Of a stretch of 54,269 nt of DNA, positions 1,021 through 49,660 are shown piece after piece (the first letter of the stretch is position 1; each line of letters starts with the position of its first letter). The stretch comes from an uncultured Rickettsiales bacterium (GTDB taxonomy: Bacteria; Pseudomonadota; Alphaproteobacteria; Rickettsiales; UBA1997): assembly GCA_944392625.1 (NCBI GenBank), contig CALXXG010000107.1, positions 1 to 54,269 on the forward strand, in the 5' to 3' direction. The notes under the pieces are model-generated. The model ran no database searches. It saw nothing but the letters and a program-made list of their open reading frames with translations, and was not told the origin of the DNA. The position numbers and the translations under genes are program-made.

Positions 1021-1283
1021 TTTTCAACCTTTTTTGCTTTCTCATATATAATAAAAAATATTTTTGAAATAGTCAAGCCCAACAACATTAAAGCAGCATT
1101 TTTCCAGCTGTTATTTAAAAATATATAAAAAACTAAACAAACTATAAATATTCGTATAAAAAAACTTATAAATATAATTGATAAACTTTTCAAATTCAAA
1201 AATATTTTTATTGTATATTTTAATGCTATTGAGTTAAATATACCCAACATTATGCCAATAAATACTAATAAAGAAACGTTCAT
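1017..1283 (-). CDS. small hydrophobic protein, ATP synthase protein I-like
   Basis: 88-aa ORF with about 3 predicted TM segments, directly upstream of and overlapping atpB, which is the usual atpI position. There is no sequence motif beyond hydrophobicity. Confidence 0.4.
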   Translation of the reverse strand: MNVSLLVFIGIMLGIFNSIALKYTIKIFLNLKSLSIIFISFFIRIFIVCLVFYIFLNNSWKNAALMLLGLTISKIFFIIYEKAKKVEK

Positions 1284-1939
1284 TAATTATAGCCTATTTC
1301 ATCTCTAGATGTAATAATTTTATCAATTAATCCGAATTTTAAAGCTTCCTCCGGGCTCATAAAATTATCTCTTTCCATAGCTTTTTCAACAGCTGACAAT
1401 GTTTTGCCAGTATGATGAACATATATGTTATTCAACCTTTTTTTAATTGATAAAATTTCTTTAGCATGAATCTCAATATCTGTTGCCTGCCCTTTAAAAC
1501 CACCAGATGGTTGGTGTATCATAATTCTTGAATTTGGAAGAGATATCCTTTTACCAGGTTCACCAGCAGCTAATAATAGAGAAGCAGCAGAACAAGCCTG
1601 ACCCAAACAAATAGTTGATACTTTACATTTTATATATTGCATAGTATCATATATTGATAAACCAGATGTAACAACTCCACCTGGAGAATTTATATACATA
1701 GAAATATCTTTTTCAGGGTTTTCTGATTCAAGAAACAATAATTGCGCAACTATAAGCGACGCCATATTATCCTCAATTTCTCCTGTAACAAAAATAATTC
1801 TTTCTTTTAATAATCTAGAATAAATGTCATAACTTCTCTCACCTCTTCCAGTTTGTTCAATAACCATAGGAACAAGCTGATTTACAATTTTATCCATAGC
1901 ACTAAAACCATATAATTTTATCTTATTAGAGATTATCAT
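1283..1939 (-). CDS. clpP: ATP-dependent Clp protease proteolytic subunit
   Basis: Motifs [17 protein letters not shown] (catalytic Ser) and MIHQPSGG (catalytic His); strongly Rickettsia-like over the full length. The true start is probably Met15 (coordinate 1897). Its stop overlaps the downstream start as TAATG. Confidence 0.95.
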
Positions 1940-2010
1940 CTATTTTTTGATAATCAAGATTTTTATAAATAAAGTTTATAGAAAAAAATAAAAACATATA
2001 TTACATTATA

Positions 2011-2527
2011 TAGCAGTAACCCACCAGCCTAGCTGGTGGTTCTTTTTCCTTTAACAATGTTTTTTCAACCATTCATTGCACTCGTGGGGAAGGATATAAT
2101 TGACCATAAGTCGCCCAATTCAATCAAGCTTGATTATCTGACATTTATGGTTGTTTGACACTGCGCTTCGCTTGTACAAACTGCACCCATGAGTTGTCCA
2201 ATTGGAATACAAGCATTCCAATTGGACAACTCATGCTAGAGTGTAGTCTTACCCATAAATACAATGGGTAGTTAAAAACAAGCATTGCAGAATGAAATAG
2301 AGTATTTTTACAAGAATAAACCACACAATTATAAGAATAAATAACATAATAATAAAAACAAATAGAATGCAAAAAAATAATGTCATAGTGGAAATACAAG
2401 TTTACTCGCAATAGCAGCTTGCAACACATAGTAGTTTGCCATAGCAAAGCAAAGGACTATGTCGTGTTGTCTCATCGCTAAAGCTAAAGTAAACAAGTAG
2501 TATAACTTGGAGTTTTAGGGATATAAT
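2011..2527. repeat. mosaic GC-enriched intergenic element R1 (paralog of R2 and R3)
   Basis: Modules are shared with 39236-39910 and 48411-48876:
- Hairpin ccaccagc/gctggtgg (2021-2039).
- Inverted copies of module A (2043-2093 reverse complement, 2248-2298 forward).
- Box ctgacatttatgg (2138-2150).
- Perfect 21-bp stem hairpin (2188-2208 / 2215-2235).
- Module B gagtatttttacaagaataaacc (2300-2323).
- Module C ...tcatcgctaaagctaaag (2457-2500). Confidence 0.85.
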
Positions 2528-2551
2528 AATAGCAAGCTTATGCTTGCTATT
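2528..2551 (-). terminator. stem-loop downstream of 2587..3741
   Basis: aatagcaagc-ttat-gcttgctatt, a 10-bp stem with a 4-nt loop. The U-tract on the minus strand is weak. Confidence 0.4.
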
Positions 2552-2586: not shown

Positions 2587-3741
2587 TTATATAGTCATTC
2601 CCCCAGCACCTCTATTTTTCTTATTTTGTATGTCTTTAGCATTATACATTTGGTTACTATTTACAATTTTATTAGATAAGTCGTTGCAAACAATTTTTAA
2701 ATATTCTTCATTCTCTTTCACATTTTCTATAATCTTATCAGAAAGTTTTTTAGTTTCTGATAAATCAACATTTATTTCAGGCACCTTAGCAACAACTTCC
2801 TTAATTTCATTAAGCATTTTATTAGCTAAAGCTTTTTGTTCATCTCCTTCTAATTTATTTAAAGACTTTATTTCTTCTGATAAGTTAATATTTGTATTCT
2901 TAATAGCGTCAACAATTTTATTATCAGGTTTCTTAAAAATGTCTATAAGTTGTTGCTCAACATTTTCATTAGTTATAGCCGTTAATAAAGTGCTAAATAA
3001 ATTAATTTCACTAATTAATTTAGGATTCTCTTTATATAAATTAATATAGCTGTTTTCACTTGGTATCATTTTATTAAGGTCTTCCATATTTATTTCTTTT
3101 AAGTTTTCTAAAAGAAAATCTTTATTTGTTGAATTATTTACCAAAGCTTTATCAGGTATATTTTTACCATTTTCTGCCGATACAAGTTTGTCTCTTGGGT
3201 TACTTTTTCTATCTGCAACAAATACTTTTTTTGTACCACGTTTATAGAAAGGTATTAATAAAAAACTTGATAATTGGGCTGGAACAAAAAGAAAAGCGAG
3301 ACCACCACCAAGAGGTCCAGCTAAAATGCACATACATGCTATAAGGCCCCAAAGTATAAGCGGACCTTTTTTCTTTTCATAATGGCCACCGTTTTGTTCT
3401 TGCTGTTTTTGATCTGGACTAATGTCTTCTTTTTGATTATTTTGTTTTTTATCTGGGTTATGTTCAATATCAACGCTATCTAATATATGATTTAATTCTT
3501 CCTGTAAATCACTTTCATTAATGCTGTTTAATGATTTTATTTTAACATTATTGTCAATTATATTAGTAAGTGGATTCTGTTTATTGGATACATTGCTAAT
3601 TTTTAATGGTTTTTCTGTTTTATCGCTAACAGTATTAATTTGTTTAATTTTTGAAGTATTACTTTGATTATTATTTACTCTTGTAGTACTTTCTGTATTA
3701 TTCTTTAATATATCATTTTGATTTGATGTAGTTGTATCCAT
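2587..3741 (-). CDS. hypothetical membrane protein, Asn/Lys-rich, with a central bilobed hydrophobic domain
   Basis: 384-aa ORF. The N-terminus is low-complexity Asn/Ser/Thr-rich. The central segment PLILWGLIACMCILAGPLGGGLAFLFVPAQLSSFLLIPFY forms two adjacent TM lobes. The C-terminal half is charged and coiled-coil-like. No family recognised. Confidence 0.55.
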   Translation of the reverse strand: MDTTTSNQNDILKNNTESTTRVNNNQSNTSKIKQINTVSDKTEKPLKISNVSNKQNPLTNIIDNNVKIKSLNSINESDLQEELNHILDSVDIEHNPDKKQNNQKEDISPDQKQQEQNGGHYEKKKGPLILWGLIACMCILAGPLGGGLAFLFVPAQLSSFLLIPFYKRGTKKVFVADRKSNPRDKLVSAENGKNIPDKALVNNSTNKDFLLENLKEINMEDLNKMIPSENSYINLYKENPKLISEINLFSTLLTAITNENVEQQLIDIFKKPDNKIVDAIKNTNINLSEEIKSLNKLEGDEQKALANKMLNEIKEVVAKVPEINVDLSETKKLSDKIIENVKENEEYLKIVCNDLSNKIVNSNQMYNAKDIQNKKNRGAGGMTI

Positions 3742-14012: not shown

Positions 14013-14576
14013 TTGGGAGAAAATATGACAATTAATAAAATATTAACTGCAAGTTTTGTATTGGGAGCGTTAGCTTTTAGTAGCGTAAATGCTGAAGAAG
14101 TAAAAAGTAAACAAAATATAAAATCTCAAGAAAAAATAACTATAAAAAAAACTAATAAAGAAGACTGTATTTCTAAAATGTTCAAAGAAATGGACAAAGA
14201 CAATGATGGATTTGTTACTAAAAAAGAACATAAAAAGTATTTAGAAAAAAAATTTGAAGAGTTAGATACTAATAAAGATGGTGTTATTACTAAAGAAGAG
14301 TTTATAATAAAAGAAAAAATAAAAACAAATAAAAAAGGTACAAAAATAGAGTATAAGAGTGATTTAATATTCAAAGAAATTGATAAAAATGAAGATGGAA
14401 AAATTAAAAAGAAAGAATATATAAAATTTAAACAAAAAGAATTTGAAAAATTAGATAAAGACGGCGATAAAAAAGTATCTTTTGAAGAATTTAAAGCTAT
14501 AAAACAAAATAAAAGCATAAAGAATAAAGAGACATCAAAAGAAAAAGTTAAAATTAAAGAAGAGATTAAAAAATAA
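14013..14576 (+). CDS. secreted EF-hand calcium-binding protein
   Basis: Signal peptide ...AFSSVNA followed by four canonical EF loops: DKDNDGFVTKKE, DTNKDGVITKEE, DKNEDGKIKKKE, DKDGDKKVSFEE. Confidence 0.8.
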   Translation: MGENMTINKILTASFVLGALAFSSVNAEEVKSKQNIKSQEKITIKKTNKEDCISKMFKEMDKDNDGFVTKKEHKKYLEKKFEELDTNKDGVITKEEFIIKEKIKTNKKGTKIEYKSDLIFKEIDKNEDGKIKKKEYIKFKQKEFEKLDKDGDKKVSFEEFKAIKQNKSIKNKETSKEKVKIKEEIKK

Positions 14577-26197: not shown

Positions 26198-27384
<1,187 letters not shown>

Positions 27385-27392
27385 AGGCCCTT

Positions 27393-28061
27393 ATGAAAAG
27401 AAGAGAATTTATAAAAAATAGTGCGATGGCAATGGCTGGTGTCGTTGGTGGAAGTATTTTTAAAAAGACTGTGTTTGCAGCAAATTCTAATGATAATATA
27501 AATAAAATAAAAAATGGGAGTAAAAAAATGAAAATATTAGTTTTGACTGGAAGTCCACGTAAAAATGGCAATTCAAATACCTTGGCTGAGTATTTTATTA
27601 AGGGAGCAGTAGAGTCTGGACACGAAGTTGTAAGGTTTGACTCCGCTTTTAAAAATGTTCATCCATGTATTGCCTGCAATAGTTGCGGTATGAATGGAGA
27701 ATGCGTTTTTCAAGATGATTTTAATGAGGTGATAGACAATATAGTTGATGCGGATATAGTTGTATTTGCTACACCAATGTATTATTTTGGATTTTCAACG
27801 CAGCTTAAAACGGTTATAGATCGTTTTTATTCAATTAATGGGAAAATTCATGTTTCTAAAAAATCTGTACTACTGATGACCTATGCAAATACAGCTTCAT
27901 CAGAGGCGGAACCTATAAAAAAACATTATGAAGTTTTGTTGAATTATCTTGGTTGGAGTGATGTTGGACAGATTATAGCCCCTGGCATGTGGCCTGCTGG
28001 TGCTATTAATGGCACAAAATATACAACTCAGGCCTACGAATTAGGCAAATCATTAGTGTAG
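27393..28061 (+). CDS. flavodoxin-like NAD(P)H-dependent FMN reductase / iron-sulfur flavoprotein-like, with Tat signal
   Basis: N-terminal MKRREFIKNSAMAMAGVVGG...VFA, then MKILVLTGSPRKNGNSNTLAEYF (flavodoxin_2/FMN_red P-loop-like), the Cys cluster HPCIACNSCGMNGEC, and FATPMYYFGFSTQLKTVIDR. Confidence 0.8.
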   Translation: MKRREFIKNSAMAMAGVVGGSIFKKTVFAANSNDNINKIKNGSKKMKILVLTGSPRKNGNSNTLAEYFIKGAVESGHEVVRFDSAFKNVHPCIACNSCGMNGECVFQDDFNEVIDNIVDADIVVFATPMYYFGFSTQLKTVIDRFYSINGKIHVSKKSVLLMTYANTASSEAEPIKKHYEVLLNYLGWSDVGQIIAPGMWPAGAINGTKYTTQAYELGKSLV

Positions 28062-28094
28062 TTATTATTTTATAAATAAATTATTGGTATTGCT

Positions 28095-29060
28095 ATGAAA
28101 AGAAGAGATTTTTTAAAGTTTTCAATTGGTGCTGCAGCCGTTGGATTAATTGGCAAAAATTTTAATATTAGCGATTCTTTTGCAGCTGCAAAAACAAATG
28201 ACAATGTAAAAGAAAAAGCAAAAGTTTATTTTATTAGAGATATTACGCCGGAAAATTTAGTAAAAATTTATGGTAAAGTTAATCAAAATATAAAGGGCAA
28301 AACTGCCATTAAACTGCATACAGGCGAACCGCATGGACCTAATATACTTCCACGCAATTTAGCCGAAGCATTACAAAAACAGATACCAAACAGCACTATA
28401 GTTGAGTGCAACGTCGCCTATTCAAGTCCGAGACAAAATACAGAAACCCATAGAGAAGTTTTAAAGACTAACGGCTGGACTTTTTGTCCTGTTGATATTA
28501 TGGATGCTGATGGAGATGTTAATCTTCCAATAAAAGATGGAAAACATCTAAAAGAAGTGGCTGTTGGAAAAAATATAAAGAACTATGATTCAATGGTTGT
28601 TTATACTCATTTTAAAGGACATGCTATGGGCGGTTTTGGTGGATCGCTAAAAAATATTTCAATAGGCTGCGCTTCTGGAAAAGTTGGCAAAATTCAATTG
28701 CATGGAAAAGGATTTCCAACGGGAAAACAGTTTTTAGAAAGAATGGTTGAAGGCGGAAAAGCTATTTGCGATAATTTCGGAAATCAAATTACCTATATTA
28801 ATGTATTAAAAAATATTTCTGTTGATTGCGATTGTGATGCACATGGAGCGAAACCAACATGTCCAGATATTGGCATTCTTGCCTCAACTGATATTTTAGC
28901 TATAGACCAAGCATCCATTGATTTAGTTTATAGTTTGCCAGAAAAAGATAAACATGATATAGTTGAAAGAATTGAATCAAGGGAAGGGTTGCATCAACTA
29001 GAATACATGGACGAATTGAAGATGGGCAATAGAAATTATGAATTAATAGAGATTTCTTAA
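28095..29060 (+). CDS. DUF362 domain protein with Tat signal
   Basis: N-terminal MKRRDFLKFSIGAAAVGLIG...SFA. IKLHTGEPHGPN and THFKGHAMGGFGGSLKNISIGCASGKVGK match my recollection of the DUF362 core (HFKGH...GFGGA.KN...G). There is also a Cys-rich SVDCDCDAHG. Confidence 0.7.
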   Translation: MKRRDFLKFSIGAAAVGLIGKNFNISDSFAAAKTNDNVKEKAKVYFIRDITPENLVKIYGKVNQNIKGKTAIKLHTGEPHGPNILPRNLAEALQKQIPNSTIVECNVAYSSPRQNTETHREVLKTNGWTFCPVDIMDADGDVNLPIKDGKHLKEVAVGKNIKNYDSMVVYTHFKGHAMGGFGGSLKNISIGCASGKVGKIQLHGKGFPTGKQFLERMVEGGKAICDNFGNQITYINVLKNISVDCDCDAHGAKPTCPDIGILASTDILAIDQASIDLVYSLPEKDKHDIVERIESREGLHQLEYMDELKMGNRNYELIEIS

Positions 29061-39235: not shown

Positions 39236-39910
39236 CTACACACCAGCCTATCTGACAGTTCTTTATTCTCCTTCAATAAAATCAATGCTTTCATTAAAGT
39301 TTAACAGCTCATGCCAGAGTGCAGTCTTCCCCACGAATGCAATGAGTATTTGAAAACAAGCATTACAGAATAAACAACACAAACTATATATTATCAAATA
39401 TAGTGTTTACACTAATATTTGACGGTTCATACCCGTAGCTTACCCAACTCAAAGGATGGAACAACAAGCCCTAAATATCGGAAAATATAAAAAATAATTT
39501 TATTTATTTTTTATTTGACGACTTATAGGTGATGTTTGTAGAATGAATAATGAGGGCTAGATGTTGGAAAATAAAAAGAGGTTTACTTATTTTTATTTAA
39601 CAACTCATGTCTGTAGCTTGATGAAAGAAATGGAGTATTTTTACAAGAATAAATCACACAATAATAAAAACAAAATGAACTGAGAAAATAAGATGGAAAA
39701 TAATGTGTTTGCATAATCATTTTAACTTGTTATTCCGCAAACTACGCCCATAAGTCGTCCAATTCAAGAAAGCTTGATTGTCAGACATTTATGGCTTGTT
39801 TTTGTCCCATCACATTTTGCCATAACAAAGTGTAAAACTACGCCGTATTGCCTCATTGCTAAAGTTAAACTTAACTACAAGTATAAGTGTGGGTTTCAAT
39901 GGATACAAAA
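39236..39910. repeat. mosaic GC-enriched intergenic element R2 (paralog of R1 and R3)
   Basis: Contents in order:
- Degenerate M1 (acaccagcctatctgacag, 39240-39258).
- Three forward module-A copies (about 39322-39370, 39434-39460, 39613-39640).
- Module B (39633-39675).
- Hairpin tcaag-aaag-cttga (39764-39777).
- Box cagacatttatgg (39782-39794).
- Module C (39811-39880).
The track ORFs 39774..39968 and 39856..40074 look spurious. Confidence 0.85.
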
Positions 39911-40766: not shown

Positions 40767-42272
40767 TTAGAAATTTAAATCAATAAATGTTGTTCTTCCA
40801 TTGATAATATTAATTGTTTTTTCAAAAATTTTTTTATTATCTGAAAAAATTTTTAATATATATTCACCATTTTTAAGACGTAAACCACCCATTTGTATAT
40901 CAGATGCTAAAGTTGTCCAATATCTTATATCAGCCCTTGAAGTTTCATTTATTGCTTTTGAAGAAGCCGCAAATGCTGCAATAGCCCCTAATTTAGCAAA
41001 AGTATTATCTTGAGAATATAAAGCATACGCACTTGAAATTGCTGCTATATATTTTGCAGTAATTCTAGATACTATAGCAGCTTGAATAATAGCTGCCTTA
41101 TCATCTAAAGTTTTTTTTGCTATATCAGATAATGGCTCTATTAATGTTAAATCAGTAGAAGCTATTTCTTCATTATTCTTATTATAGACAACTGCTGTAA
41201 ATTTTCTTATTTCATTTACATTTTTTATCTCTGGAATTTCTATTAAAATATATGGTATTCCATTTTTTGATGATAATATTGTAGTTGCAAATATAAACAT
41301 ATCTTCTCCACCAGTTCCAAACAATACTAAAGGTAATGGTATTTCTAGATTTTTTACACTTTTTGGGGCTATTAAATTATCTTTTAAAAGAATAACAACA
41401 TTATCTTTTTTATATCTTTTAAGATTTTTACTACTTCTTGCTATAAATTTTTGTAAATCTTTTGAATACTTAGTTTCAACTATATAATCCTTTTTTAATT
41501 GTTGTAGATTTAAATTTGGCAATTTTTTAAAATCTTCATTAAACTTTTTACTTTTAGCATTAAAAATAGGATACATGTTATAATTTTGTAATAACAATTT
41601 ATCTGCATCTTTATATAATTGTAACGATATTTGTCTATCAGTAGAATCGTTAAATTCACTATGAATAAATGCACCCCATATTTTAGCCATCATATCATTT
41701 TTATATATATTTTCTCCAGCAGTTTCATTTTGCATATTTTTTAAAAGAGAGTCCCATTCTATAACTGAAGATCTAGCATAATTTAAATGAAACAGTCTTT
41801 CTGAATTTGTTAACTCTTTTTTTTGAATTATATTTCCTTTTTTATCATTATATTCTTCATAAAATCCCTGTTGGAAAATATTATAATTAATTAATGATAT
41901 ATAAAACCTTATTAAAGATCTTTCATATAGTTCTCCATAATAATCATCTAAATTAGCATCCCATCCGCTTTTTATTTTATTTTTTATGCTAATAGTATAA
42001 AGGTCATCGCTAATTTTTTTTGCATTTTCAAAATACTGTAATGCTTGATAATAATCACCCCTTAAATAATATACTGTTCCTGTTTCAAGATTTTTTAATA
42101 GTTTAGAATTTTCTTGTGGATAAAAATCTTTATTTTGTGTATTTTTTAATGCTGCATCATAATTTTTATTTTTTATATTTTGAGCTAATACTCCTGATAT
42201 CTCTCTATTTTTCATTGCTCCACTACAAGATATTAGAGAAGTTAATAATATTATATATAAAAATTTTTTCAT
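40767..42272 (-). CDS. putative lipoprotein with TPR-like N-terminal region
   Basis: Lipobox LLTSLISCSG, then YYLRGDYYQALQYFENAKKI (TPR-like). 501 aa. No confident family assignment. Confidence 0.6.
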   Translation of the reverse strand: MKKFLYIILLTSLISCSGAMKNREISGVLAQNIKNKNYDAALKNTQNKDFYPQENSKLLKNLETGTVYYLRGDYYQALQYFENAKKISDDLYTISIKNKIKSGWDANLDDYYGELYERSLIRFYISLINYNIFQQGFYEEYNDKKGNIIQKKELTNSERLFHLNYARSSVIEWDSLLKNMQNETAGENIYKNDMMAKIWGAFIHSEFNDSTDRQISLQLYKDADKLLLQNYNMYPIFNAKSKKFNEDFKKLPNLNLQQLKKDYIVETKYSKDLQKFIARSSKNLKRYKKDNVVILLKDNLIAPKSVKNLEIPLPLVLFGTGGEDMFIFATTILSSKNGIPYILIEIPEIKNVNEIRKFTAVVYNKNNEEIASTDLTLIEPLSDIAKKTLDDKAAIIQAAIVSRITAKYIAAISSAYALYSQDNTFAKLGAIAAFAASSKAINETSRADIRYWTTLASDIQMGGLRLKNGEYILKIFSDNKKIFEKTINIINGRTTFIDLNF

Positions 42273-42356
42273 TATTTATTGAAAAATCATTTACTAAACA
42301 AAAATCTAAATAATATTAAAAAAATTTCAATACTTATTTAAATCTAAAATAATATT

Positions 42357-42587
42357 TTGTTAATAATATTGTTAATAACTATGTTAATATCTTGTTTATA
42401 ATTCTGTTAATAAAAAGTTATTAACAGATTATATAATTTATTAACAGAATTATAAACATATTTGTTAATGAGAAAAATTTTTATTTTTTTATTAACAACT
42501 TGTTAATAACTATATTAAGATATTATTTTTAATGGATAATTTAAAAAAATTTATGTTAATAAAACTGTTAATAAATTTTTATTAACA
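42357..42587. repeat. iteron-like array of the 9-mer TGTTAATAA / TTATTAACA
   Basis: Forward copies start at 42357, 42369, 42381, 42404, 42500, 42553 and 42565. Variants are at 42392 (tgtttataa) and 42462 (tgttaatga). Reverse copies are at 42417, 42437, 42488 and 42578. The first five are spaced 11-12 bp apart. Palindromes ctgttaataa-N4-ttattaacag lie at 42403-42426 and 42564-42587. Confidence 0.85.
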
Positions 42588-42637
42588 GTTTTACAATTAT
42601 AATAACAATAATAATAAATAATAAAATATTAAATATT

Positions 42638-43558
42638 TTATTTTGTACGAACTCTATAGTTTTCTTTTTTTATTTGATTATTTTTTTGATTTTCAAGTTT
42701 TTCAATTTCTTTTAACTTATTTTTGTTAAATAAAAACTTATTCATTTCTTGATTGTTATTTGAAACAGATATAGACGACAGTCCATCAAGTTTTAAATTA
42801 TTTATAGACTGTACTTTATTTTGTTTTAATAAGCTAAAAGAATTTATTTTGTTATTAAAATTTTCAATGTTTTTACCTTTTGAAAAAATTTTATTAAGTT
42901 CTAATTTTAAATTATTAATTGCAAAAACTTTTGTATTTTGTAATATTTTCTTATCATCATTTAAAATAACTTTTTCTTCAGTTTTTAATTTAAAATCATC
43001 TTTTTGTTTAATTTCTAGAGATCTCTTATCATCAATATAGTTTATTTTATCTTTTTTATTTTTTCTTATTTTAAAGAAAGATAAAAATTTTGACTTTTTA
43101 TTTTCTTTTTGCTTTGATTTTACAGGAAATAGATCTAGTAATGTCATTTGCAAAATACCTTTTAAAGTTTTATTGTTATCTTTCTTTTGTTTTAATTTTT
43201 TTTGATTTTTCTTTAAATTTTTTATAATAGATCTTTTAAATTCTTTAGATATTTGTGAATTGCATGGTAATTGGCCAGTTCTTTTTATTTTATCTTTAAT
43301 TGATAATGTTTTATCATTAACGATTGAAATCACATTTAGTATTTCTTTTGAAATTTCGTTTGATTGTTCTTTTTTATTTGCATTTATTATTTTTTTATCT
43401 TCTTTTTCCTTTCTTCTTGTAATTGTTTCATTTTTTAATGTATTTTCATTAAGCTTTATTGAAATTATATGCTCTAATATATTATTAGATTGCTGATCAT
43501 ATATTTTATTTTGCGTATTGTATCTTTCAATAGATTGAATTACTCTGAGATGTTCCAT
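42638..43558 (-). CDS. hypothetical Lys/Asn-rich protein
   Basis: 306-aa highly basic low-complexity ORF with no TM or signal peptide. An internal repeat INNLKL occurs twice. No family recognised. Confidence 0.45.
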   Translation of the reverse strand: MEHLRVIQSIERYNTQNKIYDQQSNNILEHIISIKLNENTLKNETITRRKEKEDKKIINANKKEQSNEISKEILNVISIVNDKTLSIKDKIKRTGQLPCNSQISKEFKRSIIKNLKKNQKKLKQKKDNNKTLKGILQMTLLDLFPVKSKQKENKKSKFLSFFKIRKNKKDKINYIDDKRSLEIKQKDDFKLKTEEKVILNDDKKILQNTKVFAINNLKLELNKIFSKGKNIENFNNKINSFSLLKQNKVQSINNLKLDGLSSISVSNNNQEMNKFLFNKNKLKEIEKLENQKNNQIKKENYRVRTK

Positions 43559-48410: not shown

Positions 48411-48876
48411 TATATCCATAAATCCCTCCTATACTTATTTATTATTCACTTTAGCTTTAGTGATAAAATAATACGACGTAGTTGCATTCCATTTTGTTTT
48501 TATTATTATTGTATGGTTTATTCTTGTAAAAATACTCAATTTCATTTTGCAAACATCACCCATAACTCATCCAATTGGAATGCAAGCATTCCATTGTCTG
48601 ACATTTATGGTTTGTTGTTCCTTTAGCAAACTGTGGGCATGAGTTGTTAAACTCTCAAACAAGCTTGGACTTTAGCAACTCATGTCTGTGATTTACCCGA
48701 CTAAAAGGATGAAAAACAGAGCTAGATGTTATGTTTCTGACTAAAAAAATGTAATATTTATATCAAAATTTAACAACTTACGGGCTAGGTACTCTTATCC
48801 ACAAATGCAATGAGTGGTTGGAAACAAGTATTGCTGAATGAAAAAGAAGAACCACCAGCTTAGCTGGTGGGTTACT
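48411..48876. repeat. mosaic GC-enriched intergenic element R3 (paralog of R1 and R2)
   Basis: Contents in order:
- Reverse-complement modules C and B (48436-48550).
- Core in forward orientation: hairpin ggaatg-caag-cattcc (48577-48592), box ctgacatttatgg (48598-48610), stem catgagttg/caactcatg (48638-48646 / 48676-48684).
- Two forward A-like copies (48689-48712, 48794-48843).
- M1 hairpin (48852-48870). Confidence 0.85.
48852..48870 (-). terminator. rho-independent terminator of the EF-hand gene (also module M1 of R3)
   Basis: On the minus strand, ccaccagc-taa-gctggtgg is followed by ttcttctttttc, 26 nt after the 48896 stop. Confidence 0.7.
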
Positions 48877-48895: not shown

Positions 48896-49396
48896 TTATT
48901 TAACTTTGTATTTATATTTTCCTTTAATTCTTCCATCTGGAGTTTTTTCATTAAATTTATATTTGTATTGAAATTTATCCATGGCTTCATTATATTGATT
49001 CTCACTAACTTTTCCAGTTCCGTTTTTATCCATTTGTGCAAACTCTAATTTTCTTTTTAATTTATATTCTTTCTTTGTAACTTTTCCATCTTTATTTAAA
49101 TCCCATTGTTCAAAAATTGTCTCTTTGTATTTAGGATCGCAATTTTCTTCTTTTTTACATTTTCCAACAAAGTTATCTTTTGAAACAAAATCTTCATCCA
49201 TTTCATCTATTAACTTCCATTGTCTATCGTGATATTTAACATAAACTTTTTCTGTTATATATCCTTTTCCATCTTTATCTAGTTCTTTAAATTTTACTCT
49301 ATATGCTTCTGGCATTTGTTTTTTAGCTTCTTTTGCATTTACATTAAATGCCATGAGTAGAGATAAAATACCAAATATAAAAAATTTTCTTTTCAT
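48896..49396 (-). CDS. secreted EF-hand calcium-binding protein (second paralog)
   Basis: Signal peptide MKRKFFIFGILSLLMAFNVNA. EF loops are DKDGKGYITEKV, DLNKDGKVTKKE and DKNGTGKVSENQ. Start taken at the ATG at 49396 (the track ORF starts at a TTG at 49411). Confidence 0.8.
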   Translation of the reverse strand: MKRKFFIFGILSLLMAFNVNAKEAKKQMPEAYRVKFKELDKDGKGYITEKVYVKYHDRQWKLIDEMDEDFVSKDNFVGKCKKEENCDPKYKETIFEQWDLNKDGKVTKKEYKLKRKLEFAQMDKNGTGKVSENQYNEAMDKFQYKYKFNEKTPDGRIKGKYKYKVK

Positions 49397-49660
49397 GTTT
49401 CTACCATTCAAAATTAATATTAAATAATTGTAATTAATTCCTTACGGAAAATATTTACAGTTTAAATATTATTTTATTATATCTTAAAAGTAAAGAAATA
49501 AATTAATTTTCTATTTTAAGTTGTAAAATTATGAGATTAACTTTATTTTCAATAAGCAATTTAGTATTTTAAAAAATTATCTTTAATATATTTTATTATT
49601 AATGTATTGATTTTTTCAAAATAAATGTTAATATTTTTAATGATAAAATTAATGCATTGT

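What the first reader, a model, noticed from the sequence alone, without database searches (positions are those of the whole stretch)
2011..2527. R1: first of three paralogous, GC-enriched, ORF-free mosaic loci built from shared sequence modules
R1 is a stretch of about 520 bp between the clpP start (1939) and the 3' end of 2587..3741. It is visibly richer in G+C than ordinary spacers in this window and is assembled from blocks that recur at 39236-39910 (R2) and 48411-48876 (R3).

Order on the + strand:
- M1 hairpin ccaccagc-cta-gctggtgg plus T-run (2021-2050).
- Module A in reverse complement (2043-2093, caaccattcattgcactcgtggggaagg).
- Core (2105-2247): cataagtcgcccaatt, hairpin aatca-agct-tgatt, box ctgacatttatgg (2138-2150), and a perfect 21-bp stem with 6-nt loop, catgagttgtccaattggaat-acaagc-attccaattggacaactcatg (2188-2235).
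- Module A forward (2248-2298, cttacccataaatacaatgggtagttaaaaacaagcattgcagaatgaaat).
- Module B (2299-2372, gagtatttttacaagaataaaccacaca...ataataaaaacaaa).
- Module C (2453-2527, actatgtcgtgttgtctcatcgctaaagctaaagtaaac).

The only ORF here (2145..2447, minus) runs across module borders and translates to Cys/Tyr/Phe-rich junk.

Inverted A copies bracketing a hairpin-rich core, an extragenic position and terminator-like ends resemble mosaic extragenic repeats (enterobacterial BIME/REP, Rickettsia palindromic elements). A family of large structured ncRNAs is also possible. I do not see the conserved cores of RNase P RNA, tmRNA, SRP RNA or any riboswitch I know, so this may be an undescribed element class.
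Basis: partly seen in the sequence, partly recalled or inferred. Interest (0 to 1): 0.8.

Follow-up and report, generated by a model that had tools for sequence, protein, structure and literature searches.

The report
Decayed IS200-type insertion sequence relic
R1 and its two paralogues are old, transposase-less remains of an IS200-family insertion sequence, now filled with small hairpin repeats; this is ordinary mobile-DNA debris, not a new RNA or element class.

Summary
R1 (2016-2522), R2 (39236-39902) and R3 (48414-48875) share sequence modules. They are 32-36% G+C against 13% for other spacers, have no credible ORF and are rich in hairpins.

The "undescribed element class" reading does not hold. 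Related uncultured "Rickettsiales" MAGs and coral metagenome contigs carry near-full-length copies. These show that:
- modules C+B are the reverse complement of the left end of a ~746-bp IS200-like insertion sequence, with its subterminal hairpin and tnpA leader;
- modules A+T are its right end, with a hairpin of nearly the same sequence;
- between the ends lies a 154-aa Y1/HUH transposase (NCBIfam transpos_IS200, 140 bits).

R1-R3 are collinear with that element but keep no trace of tnpA.

The "core" hairpins are separate 69-84-bp palindromic units with conserved flanks and covarying stems. Filled-versus-empty comparisons show seven distinct insertion sites inside IS copies, each with a 0-3-bp junction duplication. 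In the DNA I examined, units occur only inside IS copies.

No Rfam family reaches threshold.

Verdict: a non-autonomous, decaying IS200/IS605 derivative carrying nested RPE/MITE-like hairpin repeats. It is a new member of a known kind. The IS-restricted hairpin units are the only mildly novel part.

The parts
2016..2522 (-). R1: whole IS200-family relic (left end at 2522, right end at 2016); no transposase gene left
   Evidence: Collinear blastn matches to the 746-bp reference IS rebuilt from L009. IS nt 3-66 match at 80%, nt 84-110 at 96% and nt 718-746 at 97%. tblastn with the relatives' TnpA finds nothing in the window.
2016..2046 (-).
   Evidence: Same sequence and end (GGTGGGTTAC|) as the right end of the copies in L001, L009, L011-L013 and L015; the L004 copy ends GGTGGGTTAA. 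DNA fold -8.7 kcal/mol, z -4.5. It is the only terminator-like site in the scan of 1900-2650.
2047..2100 (-).
   Evidence: 78% identical over 82 nt to the right end of R3. 90% identical over the last 39 nt to the right end in L011.
2099..2156 (-). Hairpin unit H1 (CCATAAGTCG...GACATTTATGG type)
   Evidence: nhmmer with the unit profile, E 5.9e-7. The same unit type is inserted in tnpA in L012 and in the left end of L015.
2169..2236 (-). Hairpin unit H2 (CATGAGTTG...CAACTCATG type) with a perfect 21-bp stem at 2188-2235
   Evidence: nhmmer E 3e-4. Fold -24.7 kcal/mol, z -8.6. The H2-then-H1 order is the same as units 1 and 2 in L011/L001.
2236..2298 (+). Inverted, diverged second copy of the right-end segment A, abutting the left end
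   Evidence: 81% identical to the right end of R3 and 83% to R2 39316-39374. 68% identical over 53 nt to the other R1 copy in inverted orientation, above all 500 shuffles.
2295..2369 (-).
   Evidence: 96% identical to IS nt 84-110. The 21-mer is identical in all copies. Direct repeat D3.
2370..2446 (+). Decayed hairpin unit inserted in the left end, at the same site as the 81-nt unit in L001/L004/L011
   Evidence: nhmmer E 8.6e-6. Filled-versus-empty comparison of this site in relatives (site e). The fold is no longer better than shuffles.
2455..2522 (-).
   Evidence: 80% identical to IS nt 3-66. The hairpin is reduced to 5 bp, -3.3 kcal/mol, z -1.45. The relatives have 10 bp at -10.9 kcal/mol.
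2528..2551 (-). Flank, not part of the element: terminator hairpin of gene 2587..3741, immediately outside the left end
   Evidence: Inverted repeat AGCAAGC-ttat-GCTTGCT. In relatives the left end also sits just after a terminator hairpin and T-run.
39236..39902 (-). R2: second relic. It holds the left-end outer part (39837-39896), a unit (39724-39801), the left-end inner part (39624-39653), two weak units (39462-39628), segment A (39319-39374) and a degenerate right-end hairpin (39238-39270). TACAA (= TTGTA) lies just outside the left end.
48414..48875 (+). R3: third relic, on the opposite strand. It holds the left end (48414-48542), units (48542-48688) inverted relative to the IS ends when compared with R1, a decayed unit, segment A and an intact right-end hairpin ending at 48875.

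Best explanation
R1, like R2 and R3, is the decayed, non-autonomous remnant of an IS200-group (IS200/IS605 family) insertion sequence lying on the minus strand.

Shown:
- Its two ends survive. Modules C+B are the left end, which in relatives comprises the subterminal hairpin, the tnpA leader and the antisense-facing terminator. Modules A+T are the right end, with a near-identical subterminal hairpin.
- The tnpA gene is gone.
- The interior is occupied by three 60-80-bp palindromic units, a decayed one (2370-2446) inside the left end and H1 and H2 in the interior, plus an inverted duplicate of a right-end segment.

Inferred from the known biology of the family:
- The ancestral element moved by the single-strand 'peel-and-paste' route of Y1/HUH transposases, which recognise the two subterminal hairpins.
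- It inserted without a duplication 3' of a short target. That target is TTGTA in most relatives and in R2, usually just after a gene's terminator.

Inferred from the comparison of copies:
- Small hairpin units later inserted into IS copies, with 0-3-bp junction duplications.
- Recombination between units deleted tnpA and inverted the core.
- The tnpA-less form was copied to several sites, because the same unit order recurs in other species.
- In this genome the copies are now old and inert. They differ from each other by roughly 10-27%, and the left-end hairpin is eroded.

Any present-day effect is incidental and untested, for example hairpins acting as transcription or RNA-stability barriers between the upstream gene and clpP.
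For: Full-length relatives:
- L009, L012, L013 and L015 read left end - tnpA - right end. The left end is the exact reverse complement of modules C+B, and the right end ends in module T.

Transposase:
- The rebuilt 154-aa TnpA matches Pfam Y1_Tnp at 126 bits.
- It matches NCBIfam transpos_IS200 at 140 bits against a cut-off of 55.
- It matches PDB IS608/Sulfolobus TnpA, E 1e-19 to 1e-21, with the HUH motif (DHVHIL) and the C-terminal Tyr aligned.

Architecture:
- The reference is 746 bp: left end 180, tnpA 465, right end 100.
- Salmonella IS200 is 707 bp, with a terminator hairpin at nt 12-34 and a leader stem-loop (PMC4513863).

Window copies:
- R1, R2 and R3 are each collinear with this reference at both ends.
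- No TnpA remnant is present in the window.

Ends and target:
- The left- and right-end hairpins resemble each other (CCCCCAGTtagACTGGGGG and CCACCAGCtaaGCTGGTGG) and are stable, z -5.0 and -4.7.
- The left end is flanked by TTGTA in 5 of 8 distinct contexts and in R2. The right end finishes GGTGGGTTAC in all but one copy.

Hairpin units:
- Seven filled-versus-empty sites, with inserts of 69-84 nt or 148 nt.
- A profile search finds units only inside IS copies.
- Stems covary: 85.6% paired against 71.5% in shuffles, and 11 of 14 pairs carry double changes.
- The tnpA-less layout left end - unit(H2) - unit(H1) - ... - right end recurs in L001, L004 and L011 and in R1.
Against: - No transposase remnant survives in the window, so assignment rests on end homology to relatives. 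That homology is 80-97% over only 27-69-nt blocks.
- The R1 left-end hairpin is nearly gone, and its outside flank is TTAT rather than TTGTA.
- All tnpA copies I could read in full in relatives are interrupted by units, so I saw no demonstrably active master copy. Short contigs encode uninterrupted N-terminal parts (P0005, P0007).
- No presence/absence polymorphism could be tested. The only other contigs for this locus are identical.
- The perfectly conserved 21-mer within otherwise diverged copies is not explained by neutral decay.
Confidence: 0.9

Rival explanations
1. The loci are, or have become, genes for non-coding RNAs. One form is an IS-derived antisense sRNA like Salmonella art200/STnc490, transcribed from module B towards the module C hairpin, which with its T-run would be the terminator. 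The other form is one large structured RNA spanning T to C.
For: - In relatives the left-end hairpin is followed by TTTTAGAT in the antisense direction, which is a canonical intrinsic terminator shape.
- Rfam STnc490 gives sub-threshold hits on the hairpins: 30.4 bits, E 0.004 on L009, and 20.6 bits on window 1960-2041.
- IS200 is known to encode such an sRNA (PMC4513863).
- The 21-mer in module B is invariant in all copies.
Against: - No Rfam family reaches its gathering score anywhere in the window.
- The STnc490 hits are far below its threshold of 56 bits and cover little more than a hairpin.
- In R1 the would-be terminator is eroded (5 bp, z -1.45).
- Module order and orientation differ between R1, R2 and R3, which is incompatible with one large conserved fold.
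- No convincing promoter stands out. The scan found 6 promoter-like sites against 4.7 expected.
Confidence: 0.06
2. The loci are BIME-like clusters of REP sequences, mobilised by a REP-associated tyrosine transposase (RAYT). On this view they are not IS200 relics.
For: - They are extragenic mosaic arrays of hairpins in alternating orientation, separated by conserved linkers.
- RAYTs are relatives of IS200 TnpA.
Against: - The associated transposase scores 140 bits on the IS200 model. It scores only 27.8 bits on the RAYT model, whose cut-off is 80.
- Units are 69-84 nt and lack the REP 5' GTAG.
- They are not dispersed. None lies outside the three loci in 54 kb, or in the flanks of the 18 related loci.
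- The ends of the loci are IS ends with a defined target.
Confidence: 0.03
3. The loci are neutral duplicated spacer, or the relic of some other decayed protein gene, for example the small Cys-rich reading frame MEYFYKNK...DYVIMFHR seen across modules B-C in relatives.
For: - In L001, L004 and L006 modules B-C read as an open frame of 22-49 codons. An 81-nt unit is inserted in frame.
Against: - In L008 the two conserved ends of that frame are out of frame with each other. In R1 the ATGs are ATA and stops interrupt the frame.
- Conservation is at nucleotide level, including third positions.
- The segment is the tnpA-upstream left end in full-length copies.
- ORFs in R1 have no Pfam match.
Confidence: 0.01

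Closest known systems
IS200 of Salmonella/E. coli and IS1541 of Yersinia (IS200 group of the IS200/IS605 family)
   Same: - About 0.7 kb, with a single Y1/HUH tnpA in full-length relatives.
- No terminal inverted repeats.
- A terminator-like subterminal hairpin a few nt from the left end, a leader stem-loop sequestering the start region, and a similar hairpin at the right end.
- Insertion next to a short conserved target without duplication.
   Different: - R1-R3 have lost tnpA entirely and are filled with unrelated hairpin units.
- There is no detectable nucleotide similarity to enterobacterial IS200 beyond sub-threshold hairpin hits.
- The host is an AT-rich uncultured bacterium labelled Rickettsiales.
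PATEs (palindrome-associated transposable elements) and other MITE-like non-autonomous IS200/IS605 derivatives, e.g. in Haloquadratum (PMC3119063) and Halanaerobium (PMC7290912)
   Same: - Both IS ends with their hairpins are retained and the transposase is missing.
- Several copies with the same internal layout lie in different genomic contexts.
   Different: - The interior is not a simple deletion. It is built of nested palindromic units and an inverted duplication.
- The copies here are old and diverged, with one end eroded, so they are probably no longer mobilisable.
Rickettsia palindromic elements (RPEs)
   Same: - Small palindromic insertions in a lineage labelled Rickettsiales.
- They can land inside coding sequence. 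Four of five single-unit inserts are multiples of 3 nt, and one (84 nt, L012) leaves the tnpA frame open.
   Different: - Units are about half the size: 69-84 nt against ~100-150 bp.
- They were seen only inside IS copies, not in housekeeping genes.
- Most introduce stops.
- Sequence relationship to RPE families could not be tested.
REP/BIME elements of enterobacteria and pseudomonads
   Same: Hairpin repeats in both orientations joined by conserved linkers, lying next to gene ends and associated with a Y1-type transposase family.
   Different: - There is no GTAG motif and the hairpins are longer.
- They are not dispersed.
- The transposase is of the IS200 class, not the RAYT class.

Membership tests
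IS200/IS605 family (IS200 group) | Encodes a Y1 (HUH, single catalytic Tyr) transposase TnpA | tested here: not met
   In the window, tblastn with the relatives' TnpA finds no remnant in R1-R3. In homologous full-length copies of relatives the feature is met: Pfam Y1_Tnp 126 bits, NCBIfam transpos_IS200 140 bits against a cut-off of 55, and PDB IS608 TnpA at E 6e-20. R1 is therefore a derivative, not an autonomous member.
IS200/IS605 family (IS200 group) | Subterminal imperfect palindromes at both ends, similar to each other; no terminal inverted repeats | tested here: met
   The right-end hairpin is intact in R1 and R3 (z -4.5). The left-end hairpin is intact in relatives (z -5.0) but eroded in R1 to 5 bp. 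The outermost bases of the two ends, ATCTAAAAC and GGGTTAC, are not inverted repeats of each other.
IS200/IS605 family (IS200 group) | Insertion 3' of a conserved tetra/pentanucleotide at the left end, without target-site duplication | tested here: inconclusive
   TTGTA directly abuts the left end in 5 of 8 distinct contexts in relatives and in R2. Variants TTGTC and TTGCG occur elsewhere, and TTAT in R1 and R3. No empty site was available to prove the absence of a duplication.
IS200/IS605 family (IS200 group) | Size and layout: ~0.7 kb, left end ~160 nt with terminator hairpin and leader stem-loop, right end ~100-140 nt | tested here: met
   The reference rebuilt from L009 is 746 bp with segments of 180 / 465 / 100 nt. 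IS200 is 707 bp with left end 1-163 and right end 566-707 (PMC4513863). R1-R3 are collinear with it at both ends.
PATE / MITE-like non-autonomous IS200/IS605 derivative | Both IS ends retained, transposase absent, several copies with the same internal architecture at unrelated sites | tested here: met
   There are three copies in the window, plus tnpA-truncated copies in L001/L011 and L004 with the same unit order H2-type then H1-type.
PATE / MITE-like non-autonomous IS200/IS605 derivative | Evidence of recent mobility (near-identical copies, presence/absence polymorphism) | tested here: not met
   Window copies share only 73-89% identity in homologous blocks. The only other contigs covering the clpP locus are identical, so no polymorphism could be seen.
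REP/BIME with RAYT | 20-40-nt REP hairpins with 5' GTAG, dispersed extragenic at high copy, RAYT-class transposase | tested here: not met
   Units are 69-84 nt without GTAG. None lies outside IS copies. The REP_Tyr_transpos model scores 27.8 bits against a cut-off of 80.
Rickettsia palindromic elements | Membership of one of the described RPE sequence families; ~100-150 bp; frequent in-frame insertion in housekeeping genes | not testable with these tools
   No RPE consensus library was available. Size (69-84 nt) and location (only in IS copies) differ. The description of RPEs is taken from PMC10969869.
Known structured RNA families (Rfam 15) | Covariance-model score at or above the family's gathering threshold | tested here: not met
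   There are 0 hits in the whole window at gathering thresholds. The permissive scan of R1 gives only miRNA-type hits on the 21-bp hairpin and STnc490 at 20.6 bits against 56.

The most novel reading that the evidence does not exclude
The 69-84-bp hairpin units form an undescribed class of miniature elements. They have conserved flanks AAACAAG...GCAGTTTGCYGAARGA, covarying stems and 0-3-bp junction duplications. On this reading they specifically colonise and inactivate IS200-family copies, acting as a parasite of a parasite. They might use the ssDNA-hairpin machinery of the Y1 transposase or a host hairpin-processing activity. They would then drive the conversion of ISs into transposase-less mosaics such as R1.
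Probability: 0.15. Interest if true: 0.55.

Novelty: new member of a known kind. Interest (0 to 1): 0.25.

Why it matters
The main value is in annotation. Three GC-rich, ORF-free, hairpin-rich spacers in a very AT-rich genome look like candidate novel RNAs, but they are IS200-family debris. This prevents a false "new ncRNA/element class" call. It also gives a recognisable signature for the same relics in related coral-associated MAGs: the left end ATCTAAAAC-hairpin...TTTATTCTTGTAAAAATACTC and the right end ...GAACCACCAGCtaaGCTGGTGGGTTAC.

A secondary point is of modest interest to mobile-DNA specialists. The relatives show a family of small covarying hairpin units that, in all the DNA examined, sit only inside IS copies and interrupt tnpA at several sites. 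If that restriction holds genome-wide, it would be a neat case of nested parasitism and of how insertion sequences are degraded in reduced genomes.

Tried and rejected
- Rfam, whole window at gathering thresholds: nothing.
- Rfam, permissive scan of R1: only spurious miRNA or snoRNA hits on the long hairpin, plus sub-threshold STnc490.
- ARAGORN: no tRNA or tmRNA. I considered a two-piece alphaproteobacterial tmRNA because of the ...GCTAAAGCTAAA + hairpin motif. I dropped it once module C turned out to be an IS end.
- blastn of R1 against phage and plasmid collections: no match.
- Small Cys-rich peptide gene across modules B-C (MEYFYKNK...DYVIMFHR): rejected, because the frame is not conserved in L008 or R1 and the segment is the tnpA leader.
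- CRISPR-like or integron attC-like array: considered because of the 25-nt conserved linkers between hairpins. Rejected because the 'spacers' are homologous hairpins, the flanks do not fit the attC R-box consensus (from memory), and I saw no cas or integrase gene in the ORFs I scanned with Pfam.
- Invertible promoter or shufflon: the core is inverted between R1 and R3. These are diverged paralogues rather than alternative states of one locus, and no recombinase gene was seen in the flanking ORFs I scanned.
- JGI metagenome scan with the 21-mer: 0 hits.
- JGI metagenome scan with the unit-flank 16-mer: 120 loci, all chance matches by the unit profile.
- Homologue search with the neighbouring 384-aa protein, aimed at finding orthologous loci with or without R1: it returned only itself.
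- RNAalifold on the units gave no consensus because of the heterogeneous alignment. A hand-specified structure was therefore tested instead.

Full report
**Observation.** The spacer between clpP (1283..1939, minus; Pfam CLP_protease) and the stop of ORF 2587..3741 is 647 nt.
- Its central 507 nt (2016-2522) are 35.5% G+C. R2 is 31.5% and R3 32.6%. The window as a whole is 25.6%, coding sequence 26.4% and the other 22 spacers 13.4%.
- The repeat finder and blastn confirm that blocks of R1 recur in R2 and R3, in both orientations, at 73-89% identity.
- A 21-mer, GAGTATTTTTACAAGAATAAA, occurs exactly once in each locus, against 0.08 expected.
M1 is an 8-bp stem (z -4.5). The 21-bp perfect stem at 2188-2235 folds at -24.7 kcal/mol (z -8.6).
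- The ORFs in R1 have no Pfam match even at E<=1.
- There is no tRNA or tmRNA and no Rfam family at gathering thresholds in the whole window. The permissive Rfam scan of R1 gives only artefactual miRNA-type hits on the long hairpin and a weak STnc490 hit.

**Finding relatives.** An exact scan of one genome per species with the 21-mer returned eight loci. Seven come from uncultured MAGs, six of them labelled Rickettsiales by their submitters. In those seven, modules B and C are always adjacent in the same order. In the two loci that extend far enough (L001, L004), module T lies 350-460 nt upstream of B. The flanking genes are too diverged to match at the DNA level, so the modules are unusually conserved.

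Reading those loci showed a 46-codon reading frame on the opposite strand next to module B: METIIMINNNDIKSLAHTKWNCKYHIVFAPKFRRKVFY.... This is the N-terminus of an IS200-type transposase, and a protein search returned Y1_Tnp (PF01797) fragments.

Fetching the contigs that encode the longest of these gave near-full-length elements (L009, L012, L013, L015). They read as follows:
- the outside flank ...TTGTA;
- tnpA;
- the right end ...GAAAATGAAGAACCACCAGCtaaGCTGGTGGGTTAC, which is the reverse complement of modules A and T.

**Identity of the scaffold.**
- The 154-aa TnpA rebuilt from L015/L009 scores 126 bits on Pfam Y1_Tnp.
- It scores 140 bits on NCBIfam transpos_IS200 (cut-off 55) but only 27.8 bits on the REP-associated transposase model (cut-off 80).
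- It aligns to the solved TnpA structures of Sulfolobus IS200-like elements and Helicobacter IS608, with the HUH motif and the C-terminal tyrosine in place.
- With its one inserted unit removed, the L009 element is 746 bp: left end 180, tnpA 465, right end 100.
- This matches the classical IS200 plan: 707 bp, a terminator hairpin at nt 12-34, a leader stem-loop, left end 1-163 and right end 566-707 (PMC4513863).
- The left- and right-end hairpins resemble each other and are stable (z -5.0 and -4.7).
- The left end abuts TTGTA in 5 of 8 distinct contexts and in R2, usually right after a gene's terminator hairpin and T-run. The right end finishes at GGTGGGTTAC in all but one copy (L004: GGTGGGTTAA).
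- R1, R2 and R3 are each collinear with this reference. For R1, IS nt 3-66 match at 80%, nt 84-110 at 96% and nt 718-746 at 97%.
- tblastn finds no trace of TnpA anywhere in the window.

R1 and R2 lie on the minus strand and R3 on the plus strand.

**The 'core' hairpins are a second, nested kind of repeat.** Comparing filled and empty sites among IS copies shows discrete insertions of 76, 69, 84, 72 and 81 nt (single units) and 148 nt (two units). They occupy seven different positions: four in tnpA, two in the left end and one next to the right end. The six sites compared base by base have 0-3 bp of junction duplication.
- Units share the flanks AAACAAG ... GCAGTTTGCYGAARGA and a central AAGCTTG-like loop.
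- Their stems differ and covary. On a hand-specified 14-pair structure, 85.6% of cells pair against 71.5% in shuffles and 26-49% when the partners are slid. Eleven of 14 pairs show double changes.
- A profile built from the units finds every significant hit inside an IS copy. There are none elsewhere in the 54-kb window, in the flanks of loci L001-L018, or in 120 loci pulled from JGI metagenomes with the flank 16-mer.
- In R1 the units are H1 (2099-2156), H2 (2169-2236) and a decayed one inside the left end (2370-2446).
- The tnpA-truncated copies L001, L004 and L011 have the layout left end - tnpA codons 1-39 - H2-type unit - H1-type unit - third unit - right end. R1 has the same H2-then-H1 order. 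This suggests that a deletion derivative arose by recombination between units and was then propagated.
- R1 also carries an inverted, diverged copy of the right-end segment A next to its left end (68% over 53 nt, above all shuffles).
- In R3 the H1-H2 block is inverted relative to the IS ends. Both features are the expected outcome of recombination between inverted repeats (inference).

**Mechanism.**
- Shown: homology of the ends to an IS200-type element, loss of tnpA, and nested hairpin insertions.
- Inferred from established knowledge of IS200/IS605: the ancestor moved as single-stranded DNA through a Y1/HUH transposase that recognises the two subterminal hairpins, and it integrated 3' of a short target without duplication.
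- Inferred from divergence: the window's copies are old and inert. Homologous blocks are 73-89% identical, and the R1 left-end hairpin is reduced to 5 bp (z -1.45).
- Not tested: any present role, such as hairpins acting as transcription or RNA-stability barriers between the upstream gene and clpP, or an art200-like antisense RNA ending at the left-end hairpin.

**Rivals.**
- A structured or exapted ncRNA is the most serious alternative. It is suggested by the invariant 21-mer, the terminator geometry of the left-end hairpin in the antisense direction, and sub-threshold STnc490 hits. Against it, the terminator is eroded in R1, module order differs among the three loci, and no family passes threshold.
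- A REP/BIME-RAYT system fails on unit size, motif, dispersion and transposase class.
- A small Cys-rich peptide gene across modules B-C fails on frame conservation.

**Comparison and novelty.** R1-R3 are non-autonomous IS200/IS605 derivatives, comparable to PATEs/MITEs (PMC3119063, PMC7290912; listed). They carry nested palindromic units reminiscent of, but smaller than, Rickettsia palindromic elements (PMC10969869). This is a new member of a known kind. The one feature that might interest specialists is the apparent restriction of the hairpin units to IS copies, where they interrupt tnpA. I cannot tell whether that reflects targeting, a safe-haven filter in a compact genome, or spread by recombination.

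**Limits.**
- I could not scan whole genomes.
- I saw no empty site for any of the three window loci. The other contigs for the clpP locus are identical, and the neighbouring 384-aa protein has no homologues in the protein database other than itself.
- I saw no uninterrupted full-length tnpA.

Noticed in passing
window 26258-27384 (and 26400-28800): An aldo/keto-reductase-like reading frame stops at about 26728 and resumes in another frame about 12 nt later (...[19 protein letters not shown]...). The surrounding 2.4 kb is 30-40% G+C (mostly 35-40%) against 25.6% for the window. This could be a frameshifted gene or pseudogene, an assembly error, or foreign DNA.
   Followed up: partly
window 42340-42610: The 365-nt spacer between 40767..42272(-) and 42638..43558(-) holds a dozen or more copies of TGTTAATAA / TTATTAACA in both orientations. 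This looks like an array of binding sites for a regulator, or an origin-like region.
   Followed up: no
window 14013-14576 (+) and 48896-49411 (-): Two paralogous EF-hand repeat proteins, which are unusual in bacteria. They show up as a 111-nt inverted repeat at 70% identity. The second gene's stop lies 20 nt from the right end of R3.
   Followed up: partly
L003 5865-6025, L006 1-700, L014: In relatives, an IS200-like copy sits about 110 nt beyond the 3' end of the 16S rRNA gene, convergent with it and just after a terminator hairpin.
   Followed up: no
L012 and L013, nt 100-1230: The IS is inserted directly after a tRNA gene and its terminator. The two contigs share the left flank but differ beyond the right end, and they differ by an 84-nt in-frame unit in tnpA. 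This indicates a rearrangement at the IS between strains.
   Followed up: partly
window 2300-2320, 39633-39653, 48517-48537; L001-L008: The 21-mer GAGTATTTTTACAAGAATAAA is 100% identical in every IS copy seen. This includes the decayed window copies, whose neighbouring sequence has diverged 20-27%. The reason is unknown.
   Followed up: partly
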